A stretch of DNA of 34,930 nt from Candidatus Caenarcanum bioreactoricola (GTDB lineage Bacteria; Cyanobacteriota; Vampirovibrionia; Caenarcaniphilales; Caenarcanaceae), in NCBI GenBank assembly GCA_001899385.1, contig MOYB01000006.1, forward strand, positions 3,832 to 38,761. Direction: 5' to 3'. This document shows, in pieces, positions 558 through 28,322 of this stretch. The number at the start of each line of letters is the position of its first letter. Within the stretch, counting starts at the first letter, position 1. The notes below the pieces were generated by a model. The model was not told the DNA's origin, did no database searches, and saw only the letters and a program-made list of their open reading frames with translations. Both the position numbers and the translations under genes were made by a program.

Positions 558-1118
558 TTACCAATTTATAATTTTTTCAGTTAATTTAGGCACACTATCA
601 AAAATAGAATCATTAGGATATAAATTTCTTTGTTCACTTGGGTTTGTTTTACGTCCTTTAATATCTTCAAATCGACCTAAATGTGAAGTTAAAGCTATGT
701 TTATAGTTGAAGTTGCTTCTTCAAAATCATCACACATTGACATTCCATCCATTAAACCATAAAAAATTAAAATTGGCTCATGAATTATTTGATCTGTAGT
801 TTCATCAAGTAATGCAAAATAAATTTTTAAAGGATTATATACAAACTGTTCTGTTAATACTAAAGCTTTTATATTTTTATCTAAACCACTTAAACTTATT
901 TCACTTTGTACTGCTTCAAATTTATTTGTTTCTTCAATTTCTCCTATAGATAAAAGATGTCCTGCTGAAATATATTCATTATTATTCCAAATTAAATTTC
1001 GTGAAAAATTAGTTAATCTAACTATACCTGTATCCCAAAAACCTTCTACAAGATTAATTGCAGAAGTATTTAGGCTTTTTAATTTATTTGAAATATTTTG
1101 ATCTATAATTTTTGGCAT
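558..1118 (-). CDS. Siphophage-type tail tip / baseplate hub-like protein (DUF2163 / lambda gpL N-terminal-like)
   Basis: Motifs WNNNEYISAGHLLSIGEIEE, EISLSGLD, IFYGLMDGM and EQRNLYPNDSIFDSVPKL..K.INW are typical of the small hub gene that follows Dit. Its start overlaps the Dit stop by 1 nt. Confidence 0.75.
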   Translation of the reverse strand: MPKIIDQNISNKLKSLNTSAINLVEGFWDTGIVRLTNFSRNLIWNNNEYISAGHLLSIGEIEETNKFEAVQSEISLSGLDKNIKALVLTEQFVYNPLKIYFALLDETTDQIIHEPILIFYGLMDGMSMCDDFEEATSTINIALTSHLGRFEDIKGRKTNPSEQRNLYPNDSIFDSVPKLTEKIINW

Positions 1119-1717
1119 TAGTTAAATACCTCCTCAAATTCAAGAGCCCAAGAAGCTTTTTTATGTAAATCCAGATTTAGACTTATTTCATCTTTAGTAT
1201 TGGCAACTGTAAAATCTACATCATTATAAATAATAGTTTCATCTTTTATTGGTATTTGTATAAGATTAGGAATAATAGTTAAATAGCCACAACCATTTGA
1301 ATCAGAATATAAGTCCTCTTCTATTTGATATACTTTTTTATGTCCGCTAAACCGAATAAAATCCCCTGTTGCAAGAATTTTTTTATTTGCCTCCATTCCA
1401 TAAACAGAGATTATTCGACCACTTTGATTGTCTAAATCAACTTTTATTTCCCCTTTATAATTAGTTTTAGTTGATGAATAATAAGGAATTATAATTTTAA
1501 AAGATTCATATCTTCCTCGTCTTGCATTTAAAAAAGCAAATATTTCATCGTGTTCTTGTCTAGACTTTCTTAAAAGTTCTATTGATATTTGCCAATAAGC
1601 GCCTCCAAAACTAGTTGCTTGTCTATATCCTGATTGAGATCTACATATTCTAGTATTGAATGTTGATTTAATTGAAGCCCCTGTTATTGAATAAAGTGGA
1701 AAAATTTTATCTGTCAT
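1118..1717 (-). CDS. Distal tail protein (Dit), T5 pb9-like
   Basis: Motifs SQSGYRQ..FGGAYWQISI, IFAFLNARRGRYESF, GDFIRFSGHKKVYQI and LTIIPNL; about 200 aa; lies between tape measure and hub in canonical gene order. Confidence 0.75.
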   Translation of the reverse strand: MTDKIFPLYSITGASIKSTFNTRICRSQSGYRQATSFGGAYWQISIELLRKSRQEHDEIFAFLNARRGRYESFKIIIPYYSSTKTNYKGEIKVDLDNQSGRIISVYGMEANKKILATGDFIRFSGHKKVYQIEEDLYSDSNGCGYLTIIPNLIQIPIKDETIIYNDVDFTVANTKDEISLNLDLHKKASWALEFEEVFN

Positions 1718-1738
1718 AAATTATTCTTGTCTGTTATG

Positions 1739-1756
1739 AAATGACTATAACAAAAG
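1739..1756 (-). promoter_or_regulatory. Putative tail-gene promoter motif, copy 1 (minus strand CTTTTGTTATAGTCATTT, extended -10 TGnTATAGT)
   Basis: 15/18 identical to 4392..4409; the TATAGT hexamer ends 26 nt upstream of the Dit ATG. Confidence 0.6.
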
Positions 1757-1813
1757 CTGTTTTTAAATCTTGAATATAGCTTATAATTTTTAAAGATTTT
1801 ATTAAATAAAATA

Positions 1814-2938
1814 ATGTTTAAAGAAATTTCAATTCAGAATCTTAGAGGAATAAAAGAATTAAAGATTGATGATTTTGCACAAATTAATTTATTTCTTGGA
1901 AAAAATAATAGTTGTAAAACAACAGTCCTAGAAGCTTTATATTGTGCAATTAATCCTAGTAATCCTAGTCTTCTTACTAATACAAATATAATTAGAGGTT
2001 TATTAAACACTACTAAAATTGAAAATATAAATAAAACATCAAGGTTTTCTATGGAATCTCTTTTTTATAATTTAAATACAGAAAATCCTCTTCAAATAAA
2101 TTCTGTTTTTAATTTCTTGGAATTAGAACAAGAAAAACAAAATATTATAATTACTGCTTTAAAAGATATTATTAGTTCTTCTGAAAAATCCTCGTCATCA
2201 ATTTCAACAGCATTAATAGAAATAATAAAAGGTTTAAATTTTTCTTTTGAAATTATTAAAAATAAAAGAAAAAAAGAAAAATTTGAATCTATACAAATTT
2301 TAAAAGAAAAAGAAATATTTGAAAATAAAATAGATGAAAAATATTTAAAATATGCAAATCAACGAAATGGTTTTTATTTATTTTCTCATATAGCAAATGA
2401 TCTTATAAATTCAGATTTAAAAAGTAAATTTGACAATATTCTTTATCAAAAGAAAGAAAAAGAGCTTATTGATAATTTTAAAAAACTAATACCTGAAGTT
2501 CAAGCAATTAAATTTCTTGATGCTTTTTATATTGATATAGGTTTACCTAAATTAATTCGTTTAGAATCTTTAGGAGAAGGAGCTAAAAAGTTTTTTGTAT
2601 ATATTTGTCGCTTATTAGGTGATGAGAGTTTAAAAGAGAATTCTATTATATTAATTGATGAAATAGAGAATGGTATATATTATGATTCTCAAAAAATTCT
2701 TTGGAAATTTTTATTTAATTTTGCTAAAGAGAAAAAAATTCAGATTTTTGCAACAACACATTCTATAGATTGTATAAAGGCATTTGTTGAAATTGCAGAA
2801 GAAGAATCAAAAAAGAAAGAAGATTTAATAAGAATATTTAGATTAATTAAAGGAGAAGATAATGTTTTTGATATTTCAAAATATAATCTCACTTCTGCAA
2901 AAATTATTTTAAATGAATACAATTTGGAGATTCGTTAA
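1814..2938 (+). CDS. ABC-type ATPase (AAA_15/AAA_21 family; AriA-like sensor of a putative defence or toxin-antitoxin pair)
   Basis: N-terminal ISIQNLRGIKEL, Walker A variant GKNNSCKT, signature SLGEG, Walker B ILIDEIENG and H-loop ATTHS. Confidence 0.85.
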   Translation: MFKEISIQNLRGIKELKIDDFAQINLFLGKNNSCKTTVLEALYCAINPSNPSLLTNTNIIRGLLNTTKIENINKTSRFSMESLFYNLNTENPLQINSVFNFLELEQEKQNIIITALKDIISSSEKSSSSISTALIEIIKGLNFSFEIIKNKRKKEKFESIQILKEKEIFENKIDEKYLKYANQRNGFYLFSHIANDLINSDLKSKFDNILYQKKEKELIDNFKKLIPEVQAIKFLDAFYIDIGLPKLIRLESLGEGAKKFFVYICRLLGDESLKENSIILIDEIENGIYYDSQKILWKFLFNFAKEKKIQIFATTHSIDCIKAFVEIAEEESKKKEDLIRIFRLIKGEDNVFDISKYNLTSAKIILNEYNLEIR

Positions 2939-3598
2939 ATGAAAAAAACAAAATTTCTTTTAGTTGAAGGTTCTGATGATAAAAGTTTTTTTCAACAGTT
3001 TTTTGAATCTTTAAAAATTGATTATGAAAAAGAAATAGAAATTATAGAAATGAAAACTAAATATACTAAAACAGTTGAATGGAAAGAAAGATTAAATGCT
3101 ATTAAAGAAAAATTTAAAGAAGAAAATAATATATTAGGAATAATTGTTGATTCAGATAATAAATTAGAAAAAACAATTAAGGATATTCAAGCTGCTTTTA
3201 ATGAACTTGATATTAAAGAAACAATAGAAAATCAAAAATTTATTAAAATAAACGAAAACCTAAAGATTGGACTTTTTATTTGTGAACCACGAGATTTAGA
3301 AAGTCTTTGTCTTAATATTATTAAAGAAAATTCTCCTTCTGAATTGAAAGAAATTCAAGATTTTTTAGATAAGAAAAAACAAAAACATAAAAAGATTTAT
3401 CATGAAGAAAAAAAAGATTTACAAGCATATTTAACTTATAAACAATTTATAGAGGAAAAATCAGAATTTCAATTATTTTTAGCAACACAATATAATTATA
3501 AATTTGCTTATTCCCCTGGAACCGCATCACAAAAAGGCTATATAAAATTTGATTTATTCAAGGATTTAAAAAAATTTTTAGAGAATTTTAGATCTTAA
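2939..3598 (+). CDS. TOPRIM-like protein (DUF3226/DUF4435-like; AriB-like partner of the ATPase)
   Basis: LLVEGSDD (TOPRIM glutamate), IIVDSD (DxD) and DLESL motifs; starts immediately after the ATPase stop (TAA-ATG). Confidence 0.75.
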   Translation: MKKTKFLLVEGSDDKSFFQQFFESLKIDYEKEIEIIEMKTKYTKTVEWKERLNAIKEKFKEENNILGIIVDSDNKLEKTIKDIQAAFNELDIKETIENQKFIKINENLKIGLFICEPRDLESLCLNIIKENSPSELKEIQDFLDKKKQKHKKIYHEEKKDLQAYLTYKQFIEEKSEFQLFLATQYNYKFAYSPGTASQKGYIKFDLFKDLKKFLENFRS

Positions 3599-3599
3599 T

Positions 3600-4367
3600 C
3601 TATTCAAAACTTGATCTGTTTAGTTTTTTATTTGAAGTTTTTTGAACTGTTTTAATTGTGTTTGCTCCTAAATATTTTTGAACTTCTGTTTTAGATAAAG
3701 CTCTAATAGTATCTTGTGAATCCATTGCACTTATATTTATAACTACTGAAGAACTTGCTCCTAAAGTCCTTGTATTTTCTTTAGTTAAAGCACTTTTAGG
3801 TATTATTTGCCCAGATGTTTTAGGTACAAAAATTTCTGCTTCTTTTTCTCCTACTATATAAGCACTGTTAGAAGAAACTGGTCCTCCATCCGCACGAAAT
3901 CCACCAAAGATCCCCCCTAGCCCACCAAGTAAGCTGCTAAAAATACTTCCACCAGCGCTACCACCTCCACCACCAAAAAGTCCTGCTAAATTAAAACCTC
4001 CAGACATAGAAGAACTTAATCCTTGAATTAAACTATTTGCAATTGAACTACTTATTGATTCAGCAACCCCTGCAAATATATTAAACATTGAACTAGCAAA
4101 CTCTCTTAAATTAAACTCACCAGTTTCAATTGCACTACAAATAGAATTTTTTAAAGTATTTCCTATTTGATTTGAAATACTTAAAATTTCATTAAAACTT
4201 TTTTTAAAATTACTAGTTTGATTAAAAGTTTGACTTAAGTCAACAGTTTGATTTTTAAAAAAAGATGAAGTTGTTTTTAATTCGTTTTGAGTTTGAGCTA
4301 GTTTAATTTTAAAATCTTCATTATCAGCTTTAATTTTTATAACTAATTCTTCTATTTCTTGAGCCAT
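3600..4367 (-). CDS. Short phage tail tape measure protein (GTA-like size, 255 aa)
   Basis: Typical TMP N-terminus (EELVIKIKADNEDF), helical middle, Gly-rich segment and conserved C-terminal motif GFRADGGPV...YIVGEKEAEIFVPKTSGQIIP...VVINISAMD. Confidence 0.85.
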   Translation of the reverse strand: MAQEIEELVIKIKADNEDFKIKLAQTQNELKTTSSFFKNQTVDLSQTFNQTSNFKKSFNEILSISNQIGNTLKNSICSAIETGEFNLREFASSMFNIFAGVAESISSSIANSLIQGLSSSMSGGFNLAGLFGGGGGSAGGSIFSSLLGGLGGIFGGFRADGGPVSSNSAYIVGEKEAEIFVPKTSGQIIPKSALTKENTRTLGASSSVVINISAMDSQDTIRALSKTEVQKYLGANTIKTVQKTSNKKLNRSSFE

Positions 4368-4391
4368 TTTATTAATAATTAAGTTAATACT

Positions 4392-4409
4392 AAAGGACTA
4401 TATCAATAG
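4392..4409 (-). promoter_or_regulatory. Putative tail-gene promoter motif, copy 2 (minus strand CTATTGATATAGTCCTTT)
   Basis: 15/18 identical to 1739..1756; the TATAGT hexamer ends 29 nt upstream of the TMP ATG. Confidence 0.6.
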
Positions 4410-7547: not shown

Positions 7548-10500
7548 ATGGTAACTATTAATTCTTCTAGATCTACTAATAATCTAATTTTAAATGGGAC
7601 TGCTCAAATTGATTATATCTATGGAGGTTCTGGCAACGATTATATTTATGGAGGCTCTAATAATGATTATTTATATGGTGGATTAGGTAGCGATTATTTA
7701 GATGGTGGCTCAGGTAATGATAAAGTATATGGTGGAGCTGGTGATGATGAAGTATATGGTGGTTCTGGCGATGATTACTTAAAAGGGGATGCTGGTAATG
7801 ATAAAATATATGGTGGCTCTGGTAATGATTATTTATATGGTGGAATAGGTGATGATTATTTAAATGGTGGCTTTGGTAATGATAAATATGTATATAAATT
7901 TGGAGAAGGTAATGATGTTATTAAAGACTATGATGGAATAGACAGCTTAAATCTTAGTACTTTAATAGGTAAAGTTGAAGGAATTATACAAAATGGAAAT
8001 AATTTTGAAATTGAATCAACAATTTGGGTTAAAAATGGAAATAATTTAATTTTAAATTTTGATACAAACAGTAAACTTACAATTAATAATTATTATCAAA
8101 CAGGAAATATTGAAAATATAATTTTAAAAGAAATTCCAAATGAAGCTCCTGTATTTGTTGGAGATAAAACTGCTGAAATAAATGAAGGTGCTTTATATAC
8201 TTTTACAAGCACTAATTTAAACTTAACAGATTCTGATAATACTCCTTCACAGCTTACATATACAGTAAGTAATTTAATAAATGGTCAAATTTTTATAAAC
8301 GGTACAGCTTCAAATAATTTTACACAAGAACAAATAAATAATGGACTTGTTAGATTTATGCATAATAATTTACAAACTGGAGAATCTAGTTTTGATTTTA
8401 TTGTTAGTGATGGAAAAAATACTTTAGATTCTCAAAAATTTAATTTTACAGTTAATCATGATAATGATACTCCTTTATTTACTGGGGATAAGACTGCTGA
8501 AATTAACGAAGGTGCTTTATATACAATTACAAATATTGATTTGAATACAACAGATATAGATAATACTTCTTCACAACTTGTTTATACTGCAAGCAATTTA
8601 GTAGCTGGTAAAATACTAGTTAATGGAATAACTTCTAATAGTTTTACACAAACTCATATAAATAATGGCTTTGTTAAATTTGTACATAATGGCTCTGAAG
8701 CTGAAAGTGCAGGTTTTGATTTTATTGTTAGTGATGGAACAAATACTTTAGATTCTCAAGTTTTCAATTTTATAATAAATCCAGTTAATGATGATCCTGT
8801 GTTTTCTGGAGATAAGACTGCTGAAATTAACGAAGGTGCTTTATATACAATTACAAATACTGATTTAAATTTAACAGATCCTGATAATACTCTTGATGAG
8901 CTTACATATACCGTAGATAATTTAGTTAATGGACAAATCTTAGTTAATGGGGTAGCTTCTAATAGTTTTACACAAGCACAAATTAATGCAGGACAAGTCA
9001 TCTTTCAACATGATGATTCTGAAACTACAAATGCAAGTTTTCAATTTCAATTTGATGATATAGATGGTTCTTCTGCTCCTATTATGCCTCAGATCTTTAA
9101 TTTTACTGTTAATCCAGTTAATGATGATCCTGTATTTTCTGGAGATAAAACAGCAACAATAGATGAAGGTGGATTCTATATACTTACAAATGCTGATTTG
9201 AATTTAACAGATCCTGATAATACTCCTGATGAGCTTAGTTATACTATAGACAATTTAGTTAATGGACAAATCTTAGTTAATGGGGTAGCTTCTAATAGTT
9301 TTACACAAGCACAAATTAATGCAGGACAAGTTATATTTCAACATGATGATTCTGAAACTACAACTGCAAGTTTTCAATTTCAATTTGATGATATAGATGG
9401 TTCTTCTGCTCCTGTTATGCCTCAAACTTTCAATTTCACAGTTAATCCAGTTAATGATGATCCTGTATTTTCAGGAGATAAGACTGCTGAAATTAACGAA
9501 GGTGCATTATATACAATTACAAATACTGATTTAAATTTAACAGATCCTGATAATACTCTTGATGAGCTTAGTTATACTATAGACAATTTAGTTAATGGAC
9601 AAATCTTAGTTAATGGTGTAGCTTCTAATAGTTTTACACAAGCACAAATTAATGCAGGACAAGTCATATTTCAACATAATGGCTCTGAAACTATAACTGC
9701 AAGTTTTCAATTTCAATTTGATGATATAGATGGTTCTTCTGCTCCTGTTATGCCTCAAATCTTTAATTTTACTGTTAATCCAATTAATGATGATCCTGTG
9801 TTTTCTGGAGATAAGACTGCTGAAATTAACGAAGGTGCTTTATATACAATTACAAATACTGATTTAAATTTAACAGATCCTGATAATACTCTTGATGAGC
9901 TTACATATACTGTAGATAATTTAATTAATGGACAAATCTTAGTTAATGGGGTAGCTTCTAATAGTTTTACACAAGCACAAATTAATGCAGGACAAGTCAT
10001 ATTTCAACATAATGGCTCTGAAACTACAAATGCAAGTTTTCAATTTCAATTTGATGATATAGATGGTTCTTCTGCTCCTGTTATGCCTCAAATCTTTAAT
10101 TTTACTGTTAATCCAATTAATGATGATCCTGTGTTTTCTGGAGATAAAACAGCAACAATAGATGAAGGTGCTTTATATACAATTATAAATACTGATTTAA
10201 ATTTAACAGATCCTGATAATACTCTTGATGAGCTTACATATACTGTAGATAATTTAATTAATGGGCAAATTCTAGTTAATGGTGTAGCTTCTAATAGTTT
10301 TACACAAGCACAAATTAATGCAGGACAAGTCATATTTCAACATAATAGCTCTGAAACTACAAATGCAAGTTTTCAATTTCAATTTGATGATATAGATGGT
10401 TCTTCTGCTCCTGTTATGCCTCAAATCTTTAATTTTACTGTTAATGATCTGCCTTTATTTTCTGGTGATGGAACTATTGAAATTAAAGAAAATACCTCTT

Positions 10501-12542
10501 ATATAATCACAAATTCTGATATTAATGTAATAGATTCTGATACGCCTTTAAATGAAATTAATTATAAAATAACTACTAGTTTAGGTTCTTTAAATCCTAT
10601 ATTAGTTCAAAAATGGAATGGAAATGAATGGATAAATAATGATAGCTTTACACAAGCTGATATAAATAATGGTTTTGTTAGATTACAACATGATGGATCT
10701 GAAGCGTTAACAAGTATTGATTTTTATCTTATATTTGAAGATAATTTTGCTGAAAATATTCAAGTTGAACTTTTTAATATTAATGTAAACCAATTTAATG
10801 ATGTAAATAATAAAGCTATAAATGATTTTCTTATTTCTACAACTAATACAAATAATCAACGTTTTCCAGAAATAAGAAGTTTATCAAATGGTAATTTTGT
10901 TGTTGCTTGGGAAAGTTATGATAATGGAAGTGATTCTAATATAAGAGGACGAGTATTTAATGCAAATGGAACTCCTCTTAATGCTTCTGATTTTCTTATT
11001 TCTACTTCTAATATAGATAATCAACAAAATTTAGAAATAATAAGTTTAACAAATGGTAATTTTGTTGTTACTTGGGAAAGTTATGATAATTACAATAATA
11101 CTTCTGCGGATATAAGAGGACGAGTATTTAATGCAAATGGCACTGCTATTAATACCTCTGATTTTCTTATTTCTACTTCTAATGCAAATCTTCAAATGGA
11201 GCCAGAAATAACAAGTTTAACAAACGGTAATTTTGTGGCTACTTGGCAAAGTTATGATAATGGAAATGATTATAATATAAGAGGAAGAGTATTTAATGCA
11301 AATGGAACAGCTATTAATGCTTCTGATTTTATTATTTCTACTTCTAATACTTATAATCAAGAGGAGCCTGAAATAAGAAGTTTATCAAATGGTAATTTTG
11401 TAGCTACTTGGATAAGTTTTGATAATGGAAATGATTATAATATAAGAGGAAGAATATTTAATCCAAATGGAACAGCTGTTAATGCTTCTGATTTTCTTGT
11501 TCCTACAAGTAACATCTATAATCAACTGAAGCCAGAAATAACAAGTTTATCAAATGGTAATTTTGTGGCTACTTGGTTAAGTTCTGAAAATGGAGCTTAT
11601 TATGGAATAAAAGGAAGAGTGTTTAATGCAGATGGAACAGCTCTTAATGCTTCTGAATTCTTGATTCCTACAAGCAATTTTACTTCTGATCCTTATGTTC
11701 AATGTTATCCTAAAATAACAAGTTTAACAAATGGTAATTTTGTTGTTACTTGGGGAAGTCTTGATAATGGCTCTAATTGTGATATAAGAGGAAGAGTATT
11801 TAATGCAAATGGAACTCCTCTTAATACTTCTGATTTTCTTGTTTCTACTTCTAATACAAATGATCAATATTTTCAAGAAATAACAAGTTTATCAAATGGT
11901 GGTTTTGTTGTTGTATGGGGAAGTTCTGATAATGGTTCTAATAAAGTAAGAGGTCGTATTTTCAATGCAGATGGCAGCGCTCTTAGTACTTCTGATTTTA
12001 TTATTTCTACTTCTAATTATTATAATTGGTATGAACAAAATTTAGAAATAACAAGTTTATTAAATGGTAATTTTATTGTTACTTGGGAAAGTGCTAATAG
12101 TACTACTGGTCTTGATATAAGAGGACGAATGTTTAGTGCCGATGGTACTCCTTTAGGTGATTTAACAGGTATAGGTACAACAGCTAATGATCTTCTTGTA
12201 TCTCAAAGTACTTTAAAAGATACTCTTATTGGTGATGCAGGCAATGATCTTTATATCTTTAGAGATACTTTTGGTAATGATATCGTAAAAGATTCTGCTG
12301 GTATAGATTCTATGGATCTTAATGATTTTGCATATTCTACTGCTGTATTCACTCGTCAAGAAGGAAATGCTAGCACTGGAGATGATTTGTTGATAAGTAT
12401 AGGAGCTAATGGAAGTATTCTTATAGAAAATTATTTTGCGGAAGATTCTGTAAATACTGCTGGTACTGGATATATAGAAGATATAGATTTTATGGGAATG
12501 CAAAATGTTGATGTAGCTCACATTGCTACATTAGGATTATAA
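7548..12542 (+). CDS. Large RTX-family surface adhesin: N-terminal Ca-binding GGxGxD repeats, 8 cadherin-like/CSPG-type repeats, 8 beta-propeller-like repeats, C-terminal RTX cap
   Basis: GGSGNDYIY-type nonapeptides; NDDPVF...DPDN...FTQAQINAGQVIFQHD repeats; NGNFVVTW...IRGRVFNANG repeats; no Sec signal, consistent with type I secretion. Confidence 0.9.
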   Translation: MVTINSSRSTNNLILNGTAQIDYIYGGSGNDYIYGGSNNDYLYGGLGSDYLDGGSGNDKVYGGAGDDEVYGGSGDDYLKGDAGNDKIYGGSGNDYLYGGIGDDYLNGGFGNDKYVYKFGEGNDVIKDYDGIDSLNLSTLIGKVEGIIQNGNNFEIESTIWVKNGNNLILNFDTNSKLTINNYYQTGNIENIILKEIPNEAPVFVGDKTAEINEGALYTFTSTNLNLTDSDNTPSQLTYTVSNLINGQIFINGTASNNFTQEQINNGLVRFMHNNLQTGESSFDFIVSDGKNTLDSQKFNFTVNHDNDTPLFTGDKTAEINEGALYTITNIDLNTTDIDNTSSQLVYTASNLVAGKILVNGITSNSFTQTHINNGFVKFVHNGSEAESAGFDFIVSDGTNTLDSQVFNFIINPVNDDPVFSGDKTAEINEGALYTITNTDLNLTDPDNTLDELTYTVDNLVNGQILVNGVASNSFTQAQINAGQVIFQHDDSETTNASFQFQFDDIDGSSAPIMPQIFNFTVNPVNDDPVFSGDKTATIDEGGFYILTNADLNLTDPDNTPDELSYTIDNLVNGQILVNGVASNSFTQAQINAGQVIFQHDDSETTTASFQFQFDDIDGSSAPVMPQTFNFTVNPVNDDPVFSGDKTAEINEGALYTITNTDLNLTDPDNTLDELSYTIDNLVNGQILVNGVASNSFTQAQINAGQVIFQHNGSETITASFQFQFDDIDGSSAPVMPQIFNFTVNPINDDPVFSGDKTAEINEGALYTITNTDLNLTDPDNTLDELTYTVDNLINGQILVNGVASNSFTQAQINAGQVIFQHNGSETTNASFQFQFDDIDGSSAPVMPQIFNFTVNPINDDPVFSGDKTATIDEGALYTIINTDLNLTDPDNTLDELTYTVDNLINGQILVNGVASNSFTQAQINAGQVIFQHNSSETTNASFQFQFDDIDGSSAPVMPQIFNFTVNDLPLFSGDGTIEIKENTSYIITNSDINVIDSDTPLNEINYKITTSLGSLNPILVQKWNGNEWINNDSFTQADINNGFVRLQHDGSEALTSIDFYLIFEDNFAENIQVELFNINVNQFNDVNNKAINDFLISTTNTNNQRFPEIRSLSNGNFVVAWESYDNGSDSNIRGRVFNANGTPLNASDFLISTSNIDNQQNLEIISLTNGNFVVTWESYDNYNNTSADIRGRVFNANGTAINTSDFLISTSNANLQMEPEITSLTNGNFVATWQSYDNGNDYNIRGRVFNANGTAINASDFIISTSNTYNQEEPEIRSLSNGNFVATWISFDNGNDYNIRGRIFNPNGTAVNASDFLVPTSNIYNQLKPEITSLSNGNFVATWLSSENGAYYGIKGRVFNADGTALNASEFLIPTSNFTSDPYVQCYPKITSLTNGNFVVTWGSLDNGSNCDIRGRVFNANGTPLNTSDFLVSTSNTNDQYFQEITSLSNGGFVVVWGSSDNGSNKVRGRIFNADGSALSTSDFIISTSNYYNWYEQNLEITSLLNGNFIVTWESANSTTGLDIRGRMFSADGTPLGDLTGIGTTANDLLVSQSTLKDTLIGDAGNDLYIFRDTFGNDIVKDSAGIDSMDLNDFAYSTAVFTRQEGNASTGDDLLISIGANGSILIENYFAEDSVNTAGTGYIEDIDFMGMQNVDVAHIATLGL
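7596..7890 (+). repeat. Tandem 27-bp RTX nonapeptide repeats (about 11 units)
   Basis: Recurring tatggtggctctggtaatgat-like units encoding YGGxGxD. Confidence 0.9.
8133..10445 (+). repeat. Intragenic tandem array: two diverged 324-bp units (8133, 8457) plus five near-identical 333-bp units (8781, 9114, 9447, 9780, 10113)
   Basis: Unit starts ccagttaatgatgatcct / ccaattaatgatgatcct recur at exact 333-bp spacing; a diverged eighth unit follows at about 10446..10790. Confidence 0.95.
10824..12158 (+). repeat. Eight tandem repeats of about 165 bp (about 55 aa), probable beta-propeller blades
   Basis: DFLISTSN..NQ..PEI.SL.NGNFVVTW.S.DNG....IRGRVFNANGT counted 8 times. Confidence 0.9.
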
Positions 12543-26309: not shown

Positions 26310-28322
26310 TTAAAAATAACTATAATTTTGTAAATCAGCAAAATCAATATGCTCTATATATCCTGTACCTATACCAGTACCAGCTTCATTAAAATAATCT
26401 TCTATAAGTATAGTATTTGTACCAATAGTTATTAATAAATCATCACCTCCTGCATTACCATCTTGTTGAGTAAATATTGCAGAACTAAATGCAAAATCTG
26501 TAAGATCTATAGAATCATTGCCATTACTATCTCTTACTGTATCATTACCAAAATCATTTTGAAAAATATATAAATCATTACCTTCTTTACCAATAAGTAA
26601 TTCTCTTTCAGAACTAAAAGACATTAAAAGATCATTTCCTATTGTACCAATTCCTGCAAGTTCTTGTATAGGATTAGCATCTGCATCAAAGATTCGCCCT
26701 TTTATATTATAATCTGAAATATTATTTGAACTATTATAATCTAAGCTCTCCCATACAACTATAAATCCACCATTATCTAATGCCATTATTTTTGGATTTT
26801 GTTGATCTATACTATTGGGATTAGAAACAGGAACTAAAAAATCTTGTTTAATAATATTGCCATTTATATCAAATAAACTAGCTTTAACATTATAATGACC
26901 AGTAACTTGATTGATTTCATACCAAGTTACAACAAATCTATCATTTAAAAGTTCTGTAATTTCTGGATTGTATTGACCATAACTAGTATATGGAGTATTT
27001 GAAATATCAAATTCTAATATTTGACCTCCTGAATTAAAAACTTCAACTTTTATTACACAATCTACGCCATTAGAAAAATAATCTTGCCAAGCTCTTATAG
27101 AATCTCCATTATCTAAAATAAGAGTATCACTTTCTGTATTACTATTATTAGTAAAAGAATTACCTGCAAAATCATTACCAATAGGATTTCCGTCTGTATC
27201 AAGATAATGTGATATGAAATTACCATTTTCTAGCCATGTAATTACAAAACAATTAGCAATTTTTTCTATATGTGCATTTCTTTGATTACCTAAATTATTT
27301 ATTGGAATAAGAAAATCAGGCATATCAACAAGTGTATTAGTAATATCATTAAGCAAATTTATATTAATATTAAAATGTTGAGAAGCTGAAGAATCAAGTC
27401 CATCATTAGCAACAAAATCAAAACTTGCATTTGTAGTTTCAGAATTATCATGTAATATAGCTATTTGTCCAGCATTTATTTGTGCTTGTGTAAAATTTCC
27501 ATCACTATCTATCCATTGATTACCATTCCATTCTTGTATTTTTATATTTGAAGATAAATTATTTACTGTAAAAATCAATTCATTAGGACTAACAATATTA
27601 TCTGGATCTGTAGCCCTCATGTCAAAATTGCTTAAATTATTTATAATATATCGTCTAGCCTCACTAAAAGTTGCGGCTTTATCTCCAGTAATTATAGGTG
27701 CTTGATTTAATCTAATATTTTCTATTCTACCCGCTGTATAAAATCCTTGAATTGTAATTCCACCATCTGTAAAATCTAATGTTAAATTATTTCCGCTTTT
27801 AATCCACAAATCACTCTTAACTATAAAATTATCATTATTTTGTATAATACCGTTAATATTACCTATTAAATTACTAAGGTCTAATCTATCTAAACCTGCA
27901 TTATCTACTATTAAATCTTGTCCATCTCCAAGCCTATATATATAAACATCATTACCTGTTCCACCATAAAGCCTATCATTACCTGTTCCACCATTTAAAA
28001 CATCATTACCTGAGTCCCCATATAAATAGTCTTTATCACTACCACCATTAAGAGTATCATTGCCACTACCACCATAAAGACTATCTCTTCCACTTTCTCC
28101 GTTTAAGATATCGTTATTTGAGCCTCCATACAAGAAATCATTGCCTGTTCCACCATAAAGAGTGTCATCACCATTATCTCCAAACAAACGATCATTACCA
28201 GCTCCACCGTAGAGTATATCATCGCCATCACCACCTAAAAGCTTATCATTACCGCTACCAGCAGTAAGAATATCATTTGCATTACTACCTTTAATTAAAA
28301 AATTCTTTTTATATTTCGCCAT
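26310..28322 (-). CDS. Shorter paralogous RTX-family protein (N-terminal RTX repeats, one cadherin-like unit, about 4 propeller-like repeats, C-terminal RTX cap)
   Basis: GGxGND repeats; shares LSxLIG..GIIQN..NF...S..W.K.GNNL.L.F, FTQAQINAGQ and GNDLYIF..FGND.V.DS.G.DS.DL.DFA.S.A.FT.Q.GNA..GDDLLI with 7548..12542. Confidence 0.9.
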   Translation of the reverse strand: MAKYKKNFLIKGSNANDILTAGSGNDKLLGGDGDDILYGGAGNDRLFGDNGDDTLYGGTGNDFLYGGSNNDILNGESGRDSLYGGSGNDTLNGGSDKDYLYGDSGNDVLNGGTGNDRLYGGTGNDVYIYRLGDGQDLIVDNAGLDRLDLSNLIGNINGIIQNNDNFIVKSDLWIKSGNNLTLDFTDGGITIQGFYTAGRIENIRLNQAPIITGDKAATFSEARRYIINNLSNFDMRATDPDNIVSPNELIFTVNNLSSNIKIQEWNGNQWIDSDGNFTQAQINAGQIAILHDNSETTNASFDFVANDGLDSSASQHFNININLLNDITNTLVDMPDFLIPINNLGNQRNAHIEKIANCFVITWLENGNFISHYLDTDGNPIGNDFAGNSFTNNSNTESDTLILDNGDSIRAWQDYFSNGVDCVIKVEVFNSGGQILEFDISNTPYTSYGQYNPEITELLNDRFVVTWYEINQVTGHYNVKASLFDINGNIIKQDFLVPVSNPNSIDQQNPKIMALDNGGFIVVWESLDYNSSNNISDYNIKGRIFDADANPIQELAGIGTIGNDLLMSFSSERELLIGKEGNDLYIFQNDFGNDTVRDSNGNDSIDLTDFAFSSAIFTQQDGNAGGDDLLITIGTNTILIEDYFNEAGTGIGTGYIEHIDFADLQNYSYF

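What the first reader, a model, noticed from the sequence alone, without database searches (positions are those of the whole stretch)
558..4409. Stand-alone short-tail module (mini tape measure, Dit, hub): candidate domesticated GTA-like or tailocin-like particle
Seen: three uninterrupted minus-strand ORFs in canonical siphophage order TMP, Dit, hub, with host-like AT-rich composition. The TMP has both its typical N-terminus and C-terminal motif yet is only 255 aa, so it is internally short rather than truncated. There is no capsid, portal, terminase, tube, integrase or lysis gene in 35 kb. The gene after the hub is an unrelated membrane protein with its own TTGACA/TATAAT promoter, and the gene before the TMP is a divergent host gene. 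Established: tail length scales with TMP length; such short TMPs are characteristic of gene transfer agents like RcGTA, whose genes are spread over several loci. Inference: this is one piece of a dispersed, host-maintained virus-derived machine in a lineage where I know of no described GTA.
Basis: partly seen in the sequence, partly recalled or inferred. Interest (0 to 1): 0.88.

Follow-up and report, generated by a model that had tools for sequence, protein, structure and literature searches.

The report
Scattered, co-regulated phage particle genes
The short tail-gene group is real, and it is one of about thirteen separate pieces of a complete phage-particle gene set that this bacterium keeps scattered among its housekeeping genes, nearly all behind the same unusual promoter, as expected of a domesticated gene-transfer-agent-like particle.

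Summary
The three minus-strand tail genes exist: a 255-aa tape measure (TMP), a pb9-type distal tail protein (Dit) and a lambda gpL-like hub component. They are not uninterrupted. A two-gene AbiL-like defence cassette on the other strand separates the TMP from Dit.

No prophage lies to the left of the window. The rest of a siphovirus virion set is spread over the 1.84-Mb genome as single genes or pairs wedged between housekeeping genes. It comprises large terminase, portal, protease with HK97 capsid, adaptor with head closure, Neck1, a tail terminator fusion, tube, a DUF6950 protein, a gpJ-like hub, a fibre and an M15 endolysin. In all there are 13 loci on 6 contigs, and every frame is open.

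Ten of the 14 transcription units carry the exact motif TTGWTATAGT 16-44 nt before the start codon. Genome-wide, 11 genes have it in that position, and all 11 are phage-related. Host genes use TTGWTATAAT instead.

The TMP aligns end to end with ~190-aa alphaproteobacterial chromosomal tape measures, so it is naturally short.

My best reading is a domesticated, co-regulated, GTA-like particle system. Particle production, DNA packaging and vertical conservation are unproven, and no orthologues were found in the distant relatives searched.

The parts
3600..4367 (-). Short tape measure protein, 255 aa, forming its own transcription unit
   Evidence: ORF. It matches PHROG TMP families at the N- and C-termini. 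It aligns end to end with ~190-aa 'tail tape measure protein' sequences of Parerythrobacter, Tsuneonella and an Alphaproteobacteria MAG, with two insertions of about 27 and 15 aa. A profile of that alignment hits the F2-pyocin TMP (PDB 25vf_5, E 4.5e-7).
4397..4406 (-). Promoter-like motif TTGATATAGT, starting 39 nt before the TMP start codon
   Evidence: It is one of only 2 copies in the window (0.45 expected) and one of 30 in the genome.
1814..2938 (+). AbiLi-like AAA ATPase. It is not part of the particle set; it is a defence gene inserted between the TMP and Dit.
   Evidence: Pfam AAA_15 (E 2.5e-18) and AAA_21 (E 1.4e-12). PADLOC AbiLi (E 1.3e-51) and PDC-M38A (E 1.9e-45).
2939..3598 (+). 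DUF3226 / OLD-like TOPRIM partner of the ATPase (PDC-M38B, weakly AbiLii). It ends 1 nt before the TMP stop codon.
   Evidence: Pfam DUF3226 (E 1.3e-15). PADLOC PDC-M38B (E 2e-11) and AbiLii (E 4e-4).
1744..1753 (-). Promoter-like motif TTGTTATAGT, starting 36 nt before the Dit start codon
1118..1717 (-). Distal tail protein (Dit), T5 pb9 type, 199 aa
   Evidence: phrog_1302 (E 1.5e-24). PDB profile hits to 8hqz_H and T5 pb9. Atlas TM 0.95 to viral pb9-type clusters. There are 589 relatives at E<=1e-3 among the representatives, the best 49% identical. It is 32% identical to the gene after the TMP of Pelagibacter phage HTVC112P.
558..1118 (-). Lambda gpL-like minor tail / hub-attachment protein, 186 aa, overlapping the Dit stop codon
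   Evidence: phrog_2048 (E 3.5e-29). It is 25.7% identical over 100% of its length to 'minor tail protein L' of Roseobacter phage CRP-701. The Pfam match to the baseplate-hub N-terminal domain PF09931 is only weak (E 0.029). It has no PDB sequence match. The single-sequence fold failed, with pLDDT 35.5.

Best explanation
**Claim.** The window holds the TMP unit and the Dit/gpL unit of a phage-derived particle system whose genes have been broken up over the chromosome and are kept by the cell.

**Shown**
- A non-redundant, complete-looking siphovirus virion and lysis gene set lies in 13 loci (14 transcription units) on 6 contigs. It comprises TerL; portal; S78 protease with HK97 capsid; adaptor with head closure; Neck1; a tail terminator fusion; tube with a chaperone-like gene; TMP; Dit with gpL; a DUF6950 protein in the gpK position; a gpJ-like hub; a fibre; and an M15 endolysin.
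- Each piece sits between housekeeping genes, and every reading frame is open.
- Ten of the 14 units carry TTGWTATAGT, an extended -10-like element that differs by one base from the host's TTGWTATAAT. It starts 16-44 nt before the start codon.

**Inferred**
- One mosaic prophage was fragmented by the same rearrangements that scrambled this genome.
- Each fragment kept or gained the same promoter, so the set is switched on together by some factor that tells TATAGT from TATAAT.
- The products assemble a small tailed particle with a short tail set by the 255-aa TMP, and the endolysin releases it.
- The structural genes lie hundreds of kb apart, so no particle could carry its own genes. Any DNA packaged would therefore be host DNA, as in a gene transfer agent.
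For: **Dispersal and identity of the parts**
- The parts were found by tblastn with proteins of related phages and by Pfam and PHROG searches.
- ORF maps show single genes or pairs between host genes.
- I ran 10 flanking genes through Pfam and all 10 are housekeeping: EF-Ts, BioB, L3, an amidohydrolase, glucan phosphorylase, TruA, DHPS, a GT9 glycosyltransferase, aminopeptidase P and Fe-ADH.

**Single copy**
- The capsid, portal, tube, adaptor and head-closure families each give 1 match in the genome, and Dit gives 1.
- The only other matches to the parts are a TerL paralogue on C8, one 33-aa TerL-like relic on host contig C23, and pieces on small phage-like contigs.

**Common origin by module**
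- Portal, protease, capsid, adaptor and Neck1 all match one phage, MW202613, where they are contiguous.
- TMP, Dit, gpL, DUF6950, gpJ, fibre N-terminus and M15 all match CRP-701 or HTVC112P, where they lie in that order.
- This TerL type sits next to a portal in 12 of 80 metagenome relatives, and next to portal, protease and capsid in one of them.

**Promoter**
- The motif occurs 30 times in the genome. Eleven copies lie 12-70 nt upstream of a gene on the same strand, and all 11 genes are phage-related.
- Eight of the 11 units found by homology alone carry it, against 3 of 1862 other crude genes (Fisher p = 7e-18).
- The 24 host genes with TTGWTATAAT in that position include none of the parts (p = 7e-6).
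- The motif led me to two further phage-type genes: a Neck1 gene (PF04883, E 1.2e-10) and a 114-aa protein whose nearest Atlas clusters are viral.

**Long residence**
- Pooled codon usage of the 17 parts is 0.127 from the host mean. Random pools of 17 host genes average 0.097, with a 95th percentile of 0.133.
- The phage-like contigs C8 and C66 are at 0.166 and 0.27.
- Host gene order is itself scrambled: rpoB and rpoC lie 108 kb apart.

**TMP**
- It belongs to a short (~190-aa) TMP family found on alphaproteobacterial chromosomes. RcGTA's TMP is 216 aa for a 49-nm tail (PMC7296036 passage).
Against: - Conservation is not shown. Dit was not found in 40 relatives or in 400 genomes of the phylum. 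The capsid family was not found in the 8 other genomes of the family. Only the protein itself came back from the word-index search. No dN/dS could be computed.
- There are no expression or particle data.
- No small terminase or holin was recognised.
- The tail terminator match is modest (PF11367, 27 bits) and sits at the front of an 806-aa protein with a GDSL lipase domain.
- The fibre unit has no motif. The portal, adaptor and terminator units have only variants of it.
- One exact motif copy lies on the phage-like contig C66, so the motif could be an ordinary phage promoter type.
- TerL is 61% identical to the TerL of a contiguous phage module on contig C8 of the same bin, so it may be a later arrival.
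- The phages of this bin are already AT-rich (GC3 15-18%), so host-like composition is weaker evidence of age than it looks.
- This is a single 67-contig assembly, 90.8% complete.
Confidence: 0.62

Rival explanations
1. The genes are inert debris. An old prophage was torn apart by the rearrangements that scrambled this genome. The pieces have no function, and the motif is the leftover promoter type of the ancestral phage.
For: - Host gene order is scrambled: rpoB and rpoC are 108 kb apart, and there is no synteny around bioB in 4 relatives.
- No orthologues were found in relatives.
- One motif copy lies on phage contig C66.
- A 33-aa TerL-like relic lies 2.8 kb from the capsid locus.
Against: - All 17 frames (5233 codons) are open and cover their family profiles nearly end to end, in a genome where a random frame meets a stop about every 12 codons. 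That figure is my estimate from base composition, not a tool result.
- No part is duplicated or missing from the core set.
- In the related phages these genes abut or overlap and have no promoter of their own. Here each fragment has one, including Dit right after the inserted cassette.
Confidence: 0.17
2. It is an F-type tailocin. Only the tail genes are in use, as a flexible-tail bacteriocin, and the head genes are unrelated remnants.
For: - The gpJ-like protein hits the F2-pyocin tail fibre (E 1.3e-16), and the TMP profile hits the F2-pyocin TMP (E 4.5e-7).
- The tail-tip module and the head module resemble different phages.
Against: TerL, protease/capsid and Neck1 carry the same exact motif as the tail genes. 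TerL, portal, protease, capsid, adaptor, head closure and Neck1 are all intact.
Confidence: 0.07
3. It is a helper-dependent set. The scattered genes are switched on by a factor of an infecting phage, such as those on contigs C8 or C66, and serve piracy or defence rather than host-controlled gene transfer.
For: - One exact motif copy lies in front of a 324-aa gene on phage contig C66.
- TerL is 61% identical to the C8 TerL.
- The fibre C-terminus resembles proteins on contigs C8, C11 and C16 (31-36% identity).
- An AbiL-like defence pair sits inside the tail module.
Against: - Only 1 of the 30 motif copies lies in promoter position on those phage contigs. The single copy on C8 is inside a gene.
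- The set is complete on its own and needs no helper structural genes.
Confidence: 0.08
4. It is an assembly or binning artefact. Phage reads were joined wrongly into host contigs of a metagenome-assembled genome.
For: The genome is a 67-contig draft with masked stretches, and several phage-like contigs are in the bin.
Against: - It would take about 26 false junctions, each placing one intact gene between host genes with gaps of a few bases to about 150 bp.
- The parts have host-like codon usage, unlike the phage contigs.
Confidence: 0.03

Closest known systems
RcGTA of Rhodobacter capsulatus (Rhodogtaviriformidae)
   Same: - Both are siphovirus-derived head-and-tail particles with a very short TMP. 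RcGTA's is 216 aa for a 49-nm tail (PMC7296036 passages).
- Genes at more than one locus are switched on together. For RcGTA this is through GafA; I saw only the listings and abstract starts of PMC6363796, PMC9638019 and PMC5026251.
- The best PDB sequence matches of the capsid and portal here are RcGTA Rcc01687 (E 3.4e-67) and Rcc01684 (E 5.8e-48).
   Different: - From memory, not from a call: RcGTA keeps about 15 structural genes in one cluster plus a few small loci. Here almost every gene is alone.
- The capsid is as close to true phages (Azospirillum phage Cd, 248 bits) as to RcGTA (230 bits).
- Dit and the hub match T5 pb9 and pb3, not RcGTA chains.
- TerL is of the type found in Flavobacterium phage 11b.
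- The organism appears not to be an alphaproteobacterium. This is a weak inference from the make-up of its phylum sample.
Reduced GTA gene sets of Rickettsiales and Holosporaceae
   Same: GTA-type genes are split over several places in small AT-rich genomes and look selectively kept. Orientia has six GTA genes at conserved separate positions (PMC10732058 passages). Sneabacter namystus has 'multiple GTA clusters' (PMC9254644 passages).
   Different: - Those sets are RcGTA orthologues inherited within the Alphaproteobacteria. They are usually head-biased with tail genes missing, and dN/dS below 1 has been shown for them.
- Here the set is complete, including the tail tip, fibre and endolysin. 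No relatives are available.
- A shared promoter motif is visible here. I did not see one reported in the passages I read, and the supplements were closed.
Bracoviruses / polydnaviriforms of parasitoid wasps
   Same: Both have virion genes of an endogenised virus dispersed through the host genome so that the particle cannot carry them. I saw the listing and abstract start of PMC4169385 and passages of PMC9662315 comparing GTAs with wasp viriforms.
   Different: Those have a eukaryotic host and a nudivirus ancestor, and they package host-encoded virulence circles. The likeness is one of architecture only.
F-type pyocins (flexible tailocins)
   Same: Both have lambda-like tail genes (TMP, gpM/L/K/J-type tip, fibre). 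There are PDB sequence hits to F2-pyocin parts.
   Different: Tailocins have no terminase, portal or capsid. Here these are intact and share the promoter motif.
Siphophages Roseobacter phage CRP-701 and Pelagibacter phage HTVC112P (tail tip), and uncultured phage MW202613 (head)
   Same: These are the nearest named relatives of the parts, and their gene order is the order expected for the ancestor.
   Different: - Identity is only 22-53% across the parts.
- Their structural genes are contiguous.
- Their TMPs are 495-660 aa, against 255 aa here.

Membership tests
Gene transfer agent (criteria listed in Kogay et al. 2022, PMC9662315) | Built from proteins derived from a tailed-phage ancestor | tested here: met
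   Sixteen of the 17 parts, and also the tail terminator fusion, match Pfam or PHROG virion or endolysin families, or (the fibre) a phage fibre by tblastn. The chaperone-like gene has only a weak match (E 0.0028).
Gene transfer agent (criteria listed in Kogay et al. 2022, PMC9662315) | Genes fully endogenised in the host genome, often across multiple loci | tested here: met
   There are 13 loci on 6 contigs between housekeeping genes. The nearest tyrosine recombinase lies about 10 kb from the nearest locus.
Gene transfer agent (criteria listed in Kogay et al. 2022, PMC9662315) | The particle cannot package all of its own genes | tested here: inconclusive
   Head capacity is unknown. By architecture alone the genes lie up to hundreds of kb apart and on different contigs, so no single headful could hold them. 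This is an inference.
Gene transfer agent (criteria listed in Kogay et al. 2022, PMC9662315) | Particles carry mostly random host DNA | not testable with these tools
   This needs purified particles and sequencing of DNase-protected DNA.
Gene transfer agent (criteria listed in Kogay et al. 2022, PMC9662315) | Mostly vertical inheritance and co-diversification with the host | tested here: inconclusive
   Dit was found in 0 of 40 relatives and 0 of 400 phylum genomes. The capsid family was found in 0 of the 8 other family genomes. The nearest relatives are very distant, with BioB 49-56% identical. No second genome of the genus is held.
RcGTA-like GTAs (Rhodogtaviriformidae) | Orthology of the gene set to RcGTA g1-g15, in an alphaproteobacterial host | tested here: not met
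   - Capsid and portal are nearest to RcGTA among solved structures, but the capsid is no nearer to RcGTA than to true phages.
- The Dit profile and the gpJ-like protein hit T5 pb9 and pb3, and no RcGTA chain.
- DUF2460 and PF09931 score below their cut-offs.
- TerL is of the phage 11b type.
- The host class was not named by any tool.
Intact or decaying contiguous prophage | Structural genes contiguous, with integrase, regulatory or replication genes nearby | tested here: not met
   Contig C8 of the same bin shows what a contiguous module looks like here.
F-type tailocin | Tail genes only, with no head or packaging genes in the system | tested here: not met
   TerL, portal, protease, capsid and connectors are present and intact. 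TerL, protease/capsid and Neck1 carry the same exact motif as the tail genes.
AbiL-type two-gene defence system (the cassette that interrupts the module) | An AAA_15/21 ATPase followed by a small TOPRIM-like partner | tested here: met
   PADLOC gives AbiLi (E 1.3e-51) and PDC-M38A (E 1.9e-45) for the first gene, and PDC-M38B (E 2e-11) and AbiLii (E 4e-4, weak) for the second. Pfam gives DUF3226 and OLD-like TOPRIM. Function was not tested.

The most novel reading that the evidence does not exclude
An independently evolved gene transfer agent (viriform) outside the Alphaproteobacteria. Its complete virion gene set has been atomised into about a dozen single-gene loci. These are re-unified as a regulon by a dedicated one-base variant of the host -10 element (TTTGWTATAGT against TTGWTATAAT), read by a factor still to be found. 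This would be a bacterial counterpart of the dispersed architecture of wasp bracoviruses.
Probability: 0.4. Interest if true: 0.9.

Novelty: new variant of a known kind. Interest (0 to 1): 0.8.

Why it matters
Known GTAs keep most structural genes in one block. How a cell takes control of phage genes, and how far a virus can be dissolved into a host genome and still work, are open questions.

Here the breaking-up is nearly complete, yet every gene is intact and almost every fragment carries the same promoter signature. That gives a directly testable regulon:
- one motif,
- one predicted regulator or sigma specificity,
- 14 transcription units.

The motif was also useful for finding parts. It located a Neck1 gene and a further virus-like gene that homology searches had not reached. 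If particles are made, this would add a new, independently domesticated GTA lineage with a very short tail.

Tried and rejected
**Rejected readings**
- Prophage to the left of the window: rejected.
- Internal deletion of a long TMP: rejected in favour of a naturally short TMP family.
- Direct descent from RcGTA: not supported.

**Things that led nowhere**
- Close relatives for dN/dS. The word-index search with Dit found only the protein itself. The capsid had no relative in genome contigs or viral contigs. The Dit relatives P0002 and P0003 were not in viral contigs, and P0002 was not in metagenome contigs. TerL relatives in metagenomes are only 45-53% identical.
- Alignment queries A1 and A2 were too variable for the search for related loci.
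- Naming the lineage. GyrB as a query gave only 47-54% matches spread over many phyla. There is no Photo_RC match. rpoC is one 1845-aa frame. The phylum remains unnamed.
- Synteny. Only bioB itself is shared within about 9 kb in 4 family relatives.
- Sequencing runs: none was listed and no RNA holder was listed.
- Structure of the gpL-like protein. The single-sequence model had pLDDT 35.5 and was not searched. There was no PDB sequence match for gpL or TerL.
- Rfam found nothing in the window or at C1:308300-309600.
- No extended similarity was seen between the promoter regions beyond the motif, apart from the TerL and Neck1 leaders.
- Paper searches turned up no description of a bacterial virion gene set split into a dozen loci with a common promoter.

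Full report
**1. The observation**

- The first matches tape-measure families at both ends.
- The second matches phrog_1302 'distal tail protein' (E 1.5e-24). It has the T5 pb9 fold by profile search of the PDB and by the Atlas model.
- The third matches phrog_2048 (E 3.5e-29). It matches 'minor tail protein L' of Roseobacter phage CRP-701 over its whole length. It is a gpL-like hub component rather than the hub itself.

The ORFs are not uninterrupted. Two plus-strand genes (1814-2938 and 2939-3598) lie between the TMP and Dit. They are an AbiLi-like AAA ATPase and a DUF3226/TOPRIM-like partner.

To the left of the window there is no prophage. That stretch holds a membrane protein, a coiled-coil protein, an ABC transporter and a 4Fe-4S protein.

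**2. The rest of the particle genes**

The nearest named phages are Pelagibacter phage HTVC112P and Roseobacter phage CRP-701. Both have the order TMP, Dit, gpL, a DUF6950 or gpK-position gene, gpJ, fibre and later an M15 peptidase. I searched the whole genome with their proteins and with Pfam families. This found the missing genes, each in a different place.

| Part | Place in G000 | Strand |
|---|---|---|
| TerL | C45:111802-113130 | - |
| Portal | C34:127521-128660 | + |
| S78 protease | C23:190839-191375 | + |
| HK97 capsid | C23:191359-192582 | + |
| Adaptor | C1:139188-139742 | + |
| Head closure | C1:139718-140089 | + |
| Tube (with a 113-aa chaperone-like gene downstream, 221170-221511) | C12:221524-221973 | - |
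| DUF6950 protein | C34:1173-1580 | - |
| gpJ-like protein, 1072 aa | C23:119225-122443 | + |
| Fibre, 359 aa | C1:273337-274416 | - |
| M15 endolysin | C23:68391-68834 | + |

The ORF maps show each piece as a single gene or a pair between host genes, often with gaps of only a few bases. All ten flanking genes that I ran through Pfam are housekeeping.

Capsid, portal, tube, adaptor, head-closure and Dit searches each give one match in the genome. The nearest tyrosine recombinase is about 10 kb from the nearest locus.

**3. A shared promoter-like motif**

I lined up the upstream regions and found TTGWTATAGT, usually preceded by a T. It starts 16-44 nt before the start codons of TerL, protease, tube, TMP, Dit, DUF6950, gpJ and M15.

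- The motif occurs 30 times on both strands of the genome, roughly what base composition predicts. The window has 2 copies against 0.45 expected, and both are the TMP and Dit sites.
- Eleven copies lie 12-70 nt upstream of a same-strand gene. Eight are the units above.
- The other three led to three genes:
  - a 99-aa HK97-gp10-like Neck1 gene at C34:44268-44567;
  - a 114-aa gene at C1:284764-285108 whose nearest Atlas clusters are viral (score 0.96, TM 0.87);
  - a 324-aa gene on the phage-like contig C66.
- A one-mismatch copy precedes an 806-aa protein at C1:11906-14326. Its N-terminus matches tail terminators (PF11367, phrog_176) and it continues into a GDSL lipase domain.
- The portal and adaptor units have variants (AAGATATAGT and TTTTGTATAGT). 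The fibre unit has none.
- Host genes with the same extended -10 shape use TTGWTATAAT. There are 24 such genes, and none is a particle gene.
- Fisher tests give p = 7e-18 for motif against particle unit, and p = 7e-6 for G against A at the fifth position of the hexamer.

In all, 10 of 14 units carry the exact motif, 3 carry variants and 1 has none.

**4. One ancestor or many**

- Portal, protease, capsid, adaptor and Neck1 all find the same uncultured phage, MW202613, where they are contiguous.
- TMP, Dit, gpL, DUF6950, gpJ, the fibre N-terminus and M15 all find CRP-701 or HTVC112P in that order.
- TerL is 51% identical to that of Flavobacterium phage 11b. In 12 of 80 metagenome relatives this TerL type is followed by a portal, and in one of them by portal, protease and capsid.

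The set is thus what one mosaic siphophage would carry.

Among solved structures the capsid and portal are nearest to RcGTA. However, true phages score as high, and the tail tip is T5/lambda-like. I therefore do not file it as an RcGTA relative.

**5. The short tape measure**

Among proteins of similar length, the TMP aligns from first to last residue (26-35% identity) with a family of ~190-aa proteins. Several of these are named 'tail tape measure protein' in Parerythrobacter, Tsuneonella and an alphaproteobacterial MAG, on contigs of megabase size. The window's protein has two extra segments of about 27 and 15 aa.

RcGTA's TMP has 216 residues for a 49-nm tail (PMC7296036, passages). That the ~190-aa proteins are GTA tape measures is my recollection and was not tested here. 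A short tail of that order is an inference.

**6. Age and selection**

- GC3 of the 17 parts is 7-17%, against 11.2 +/- 2.7% for host genes.
- Their pooled codon usage falls inside the range of random host gene pools. Contigs C8 and C66 fall outside it.
- The genome's order is scrambled: rpoB and rpoC are 108 kb apart on opposite strands.
- Nothing but bioB itself is shared around bioB with four family relatives, whose BioB is only 49-56% identical.

Fragmentation by ordinary rearrangement over a long time is therefore plausible. The 5233 codons remain open, and each fragment has a promoter. This is what argues for selection.

Direct evidence is lacking:
- Dit was not found in 40 relatives or in 400 genomes of the phylum.
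- The capsid family was not found in the other 8 genomes of the family.
- No close relative exists in the protein or contig collections searched.
- No sequencing run was listed.

**7. Reading**

The best explanation is a domesticated, co-regulated particle system of the GTA kind, with the window holding two of its 14 units. The head genes share the motif, which speaks against a pure tailocin.

The remaining rivals are inert debris, a helper-phage-dependent set, and an assembly artefact. Their weights are given in the Rival explanations section.

Known parallels:
- RcGTA's multilocus genome and its activator GafA (listings and abstract starts only);
- the split GTA sets of Rickettsiales and Holosporaceae (passages);
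- the dispersed virion genes of bracoviruses, for architecture only (listing and abstract start).

The GTA criteria used in the membership test are those listed in PMC9662315 (passage).

**8. Limits**

- The lineage was not named by any tool. That it is not an alphaproteobacterium is only inferred from the make-up of the phylum sample, where one family supplied 169 of the 400 genomes sampled.
- Supplementary files of the papers were closed.
- The single-sequence model of the gpL-like protein was too poor to use.

Noticed in passing
window 1814-3598 (+): An AbiL-like / PDC-M38 two-gene defence cassette (AAA_15/21 ATPase plus a DUF3226 TOPRIM-like protein) sits exactly between the TMP stop codon and the Dit promoter. 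It is convergent with the TMP, with a 1-nt gap. A 2026 paper reports an immune system that controls GTA release (PMC13236601; I saw only the listing and abstract start). Any link here is speculation.
   Followed up: partly
window 7548-12542 (+) and 26310-28322 (-); also G000:C23:118319-119080 (-), next to the gpJ-like gene: There are large RTX / cadherin-like repeat proteins. The 1664-aa one has 8 Cadherin_3 stretches, Big_9 and HemolysinCabind domains. The 670-aa one has the same N- and C-terminal design by eye. A 253-aa RTX protein lies divergent from the gpJ-like gene.
   Followed up: partly
G000:C45:100014-103403 (-) and C45:211051-216588 (+): rpoB and rpoC are 108 kb apart on opposite strands, and rpoC is a single 1845-aa frame. 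They were located with short conserved peptide motifs only. This points to unusually scrambled gene order in this lineage.
   Followed up: partly
G000:C1:11906-14326 (-): An 806-aa protein has an N-terminus that matches tail terminators (PF11367 E 5.2e-6; phrog_176). This is followed by a GDSL lipase/acylhydrolase domain and about 400 further residues. It is an odd fusion for a terminator.
   Followed up: no
G000:C23:187936-188034 (-): A 33-aa stretch is 58% identical to the Walker A region of the scattered TerL. It lies 2.8 kb from the protease/capsid locus and may be a relic of an earlier TerL position.
   Followed up: no
G000 contigs C8, C66, C10, C11, C16: There are phage-like contigs in the bin with higher GC3 than the host. 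C8 carries a contiguous module: a Rha regulator, a TerL 61% identical to the scattered one, an S49 protease and a 1602-aa TMP. The C-terminal half of the scattered fibre is 31-36% identical to proteins on C8, C11 and C16. This would fit a shared receptor on this host.
   Followed up: partly
G000:C34:1588-2631 (-) and C1:283713-284732 (+): Two distantly related GT9-type glycosyltransferase genes (29% identical; only the first was checked by Pfam) both end in Leu-Leu-stop, encoded by TTG TTA TAG. The promoter motif of the phage-derived gene that follows therefore overlaps their last codons.
   Followed up: partly
G000:C1:309444 (-) and downstream to about 308900: An exact motif copy is followed not by an ORF but by a G+C-richer stretch with stops in all frames. 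This runs into a masked region, and Rfam finds nothing there. It is unexplained.
   Followed up: partly
G000:C1:285157-286095 (+): A 312-aa protein with an RNase H / RVT_3 domain lies 48 nt after the motif-bearing 114-aa virus-like gene.
   Followed up: no
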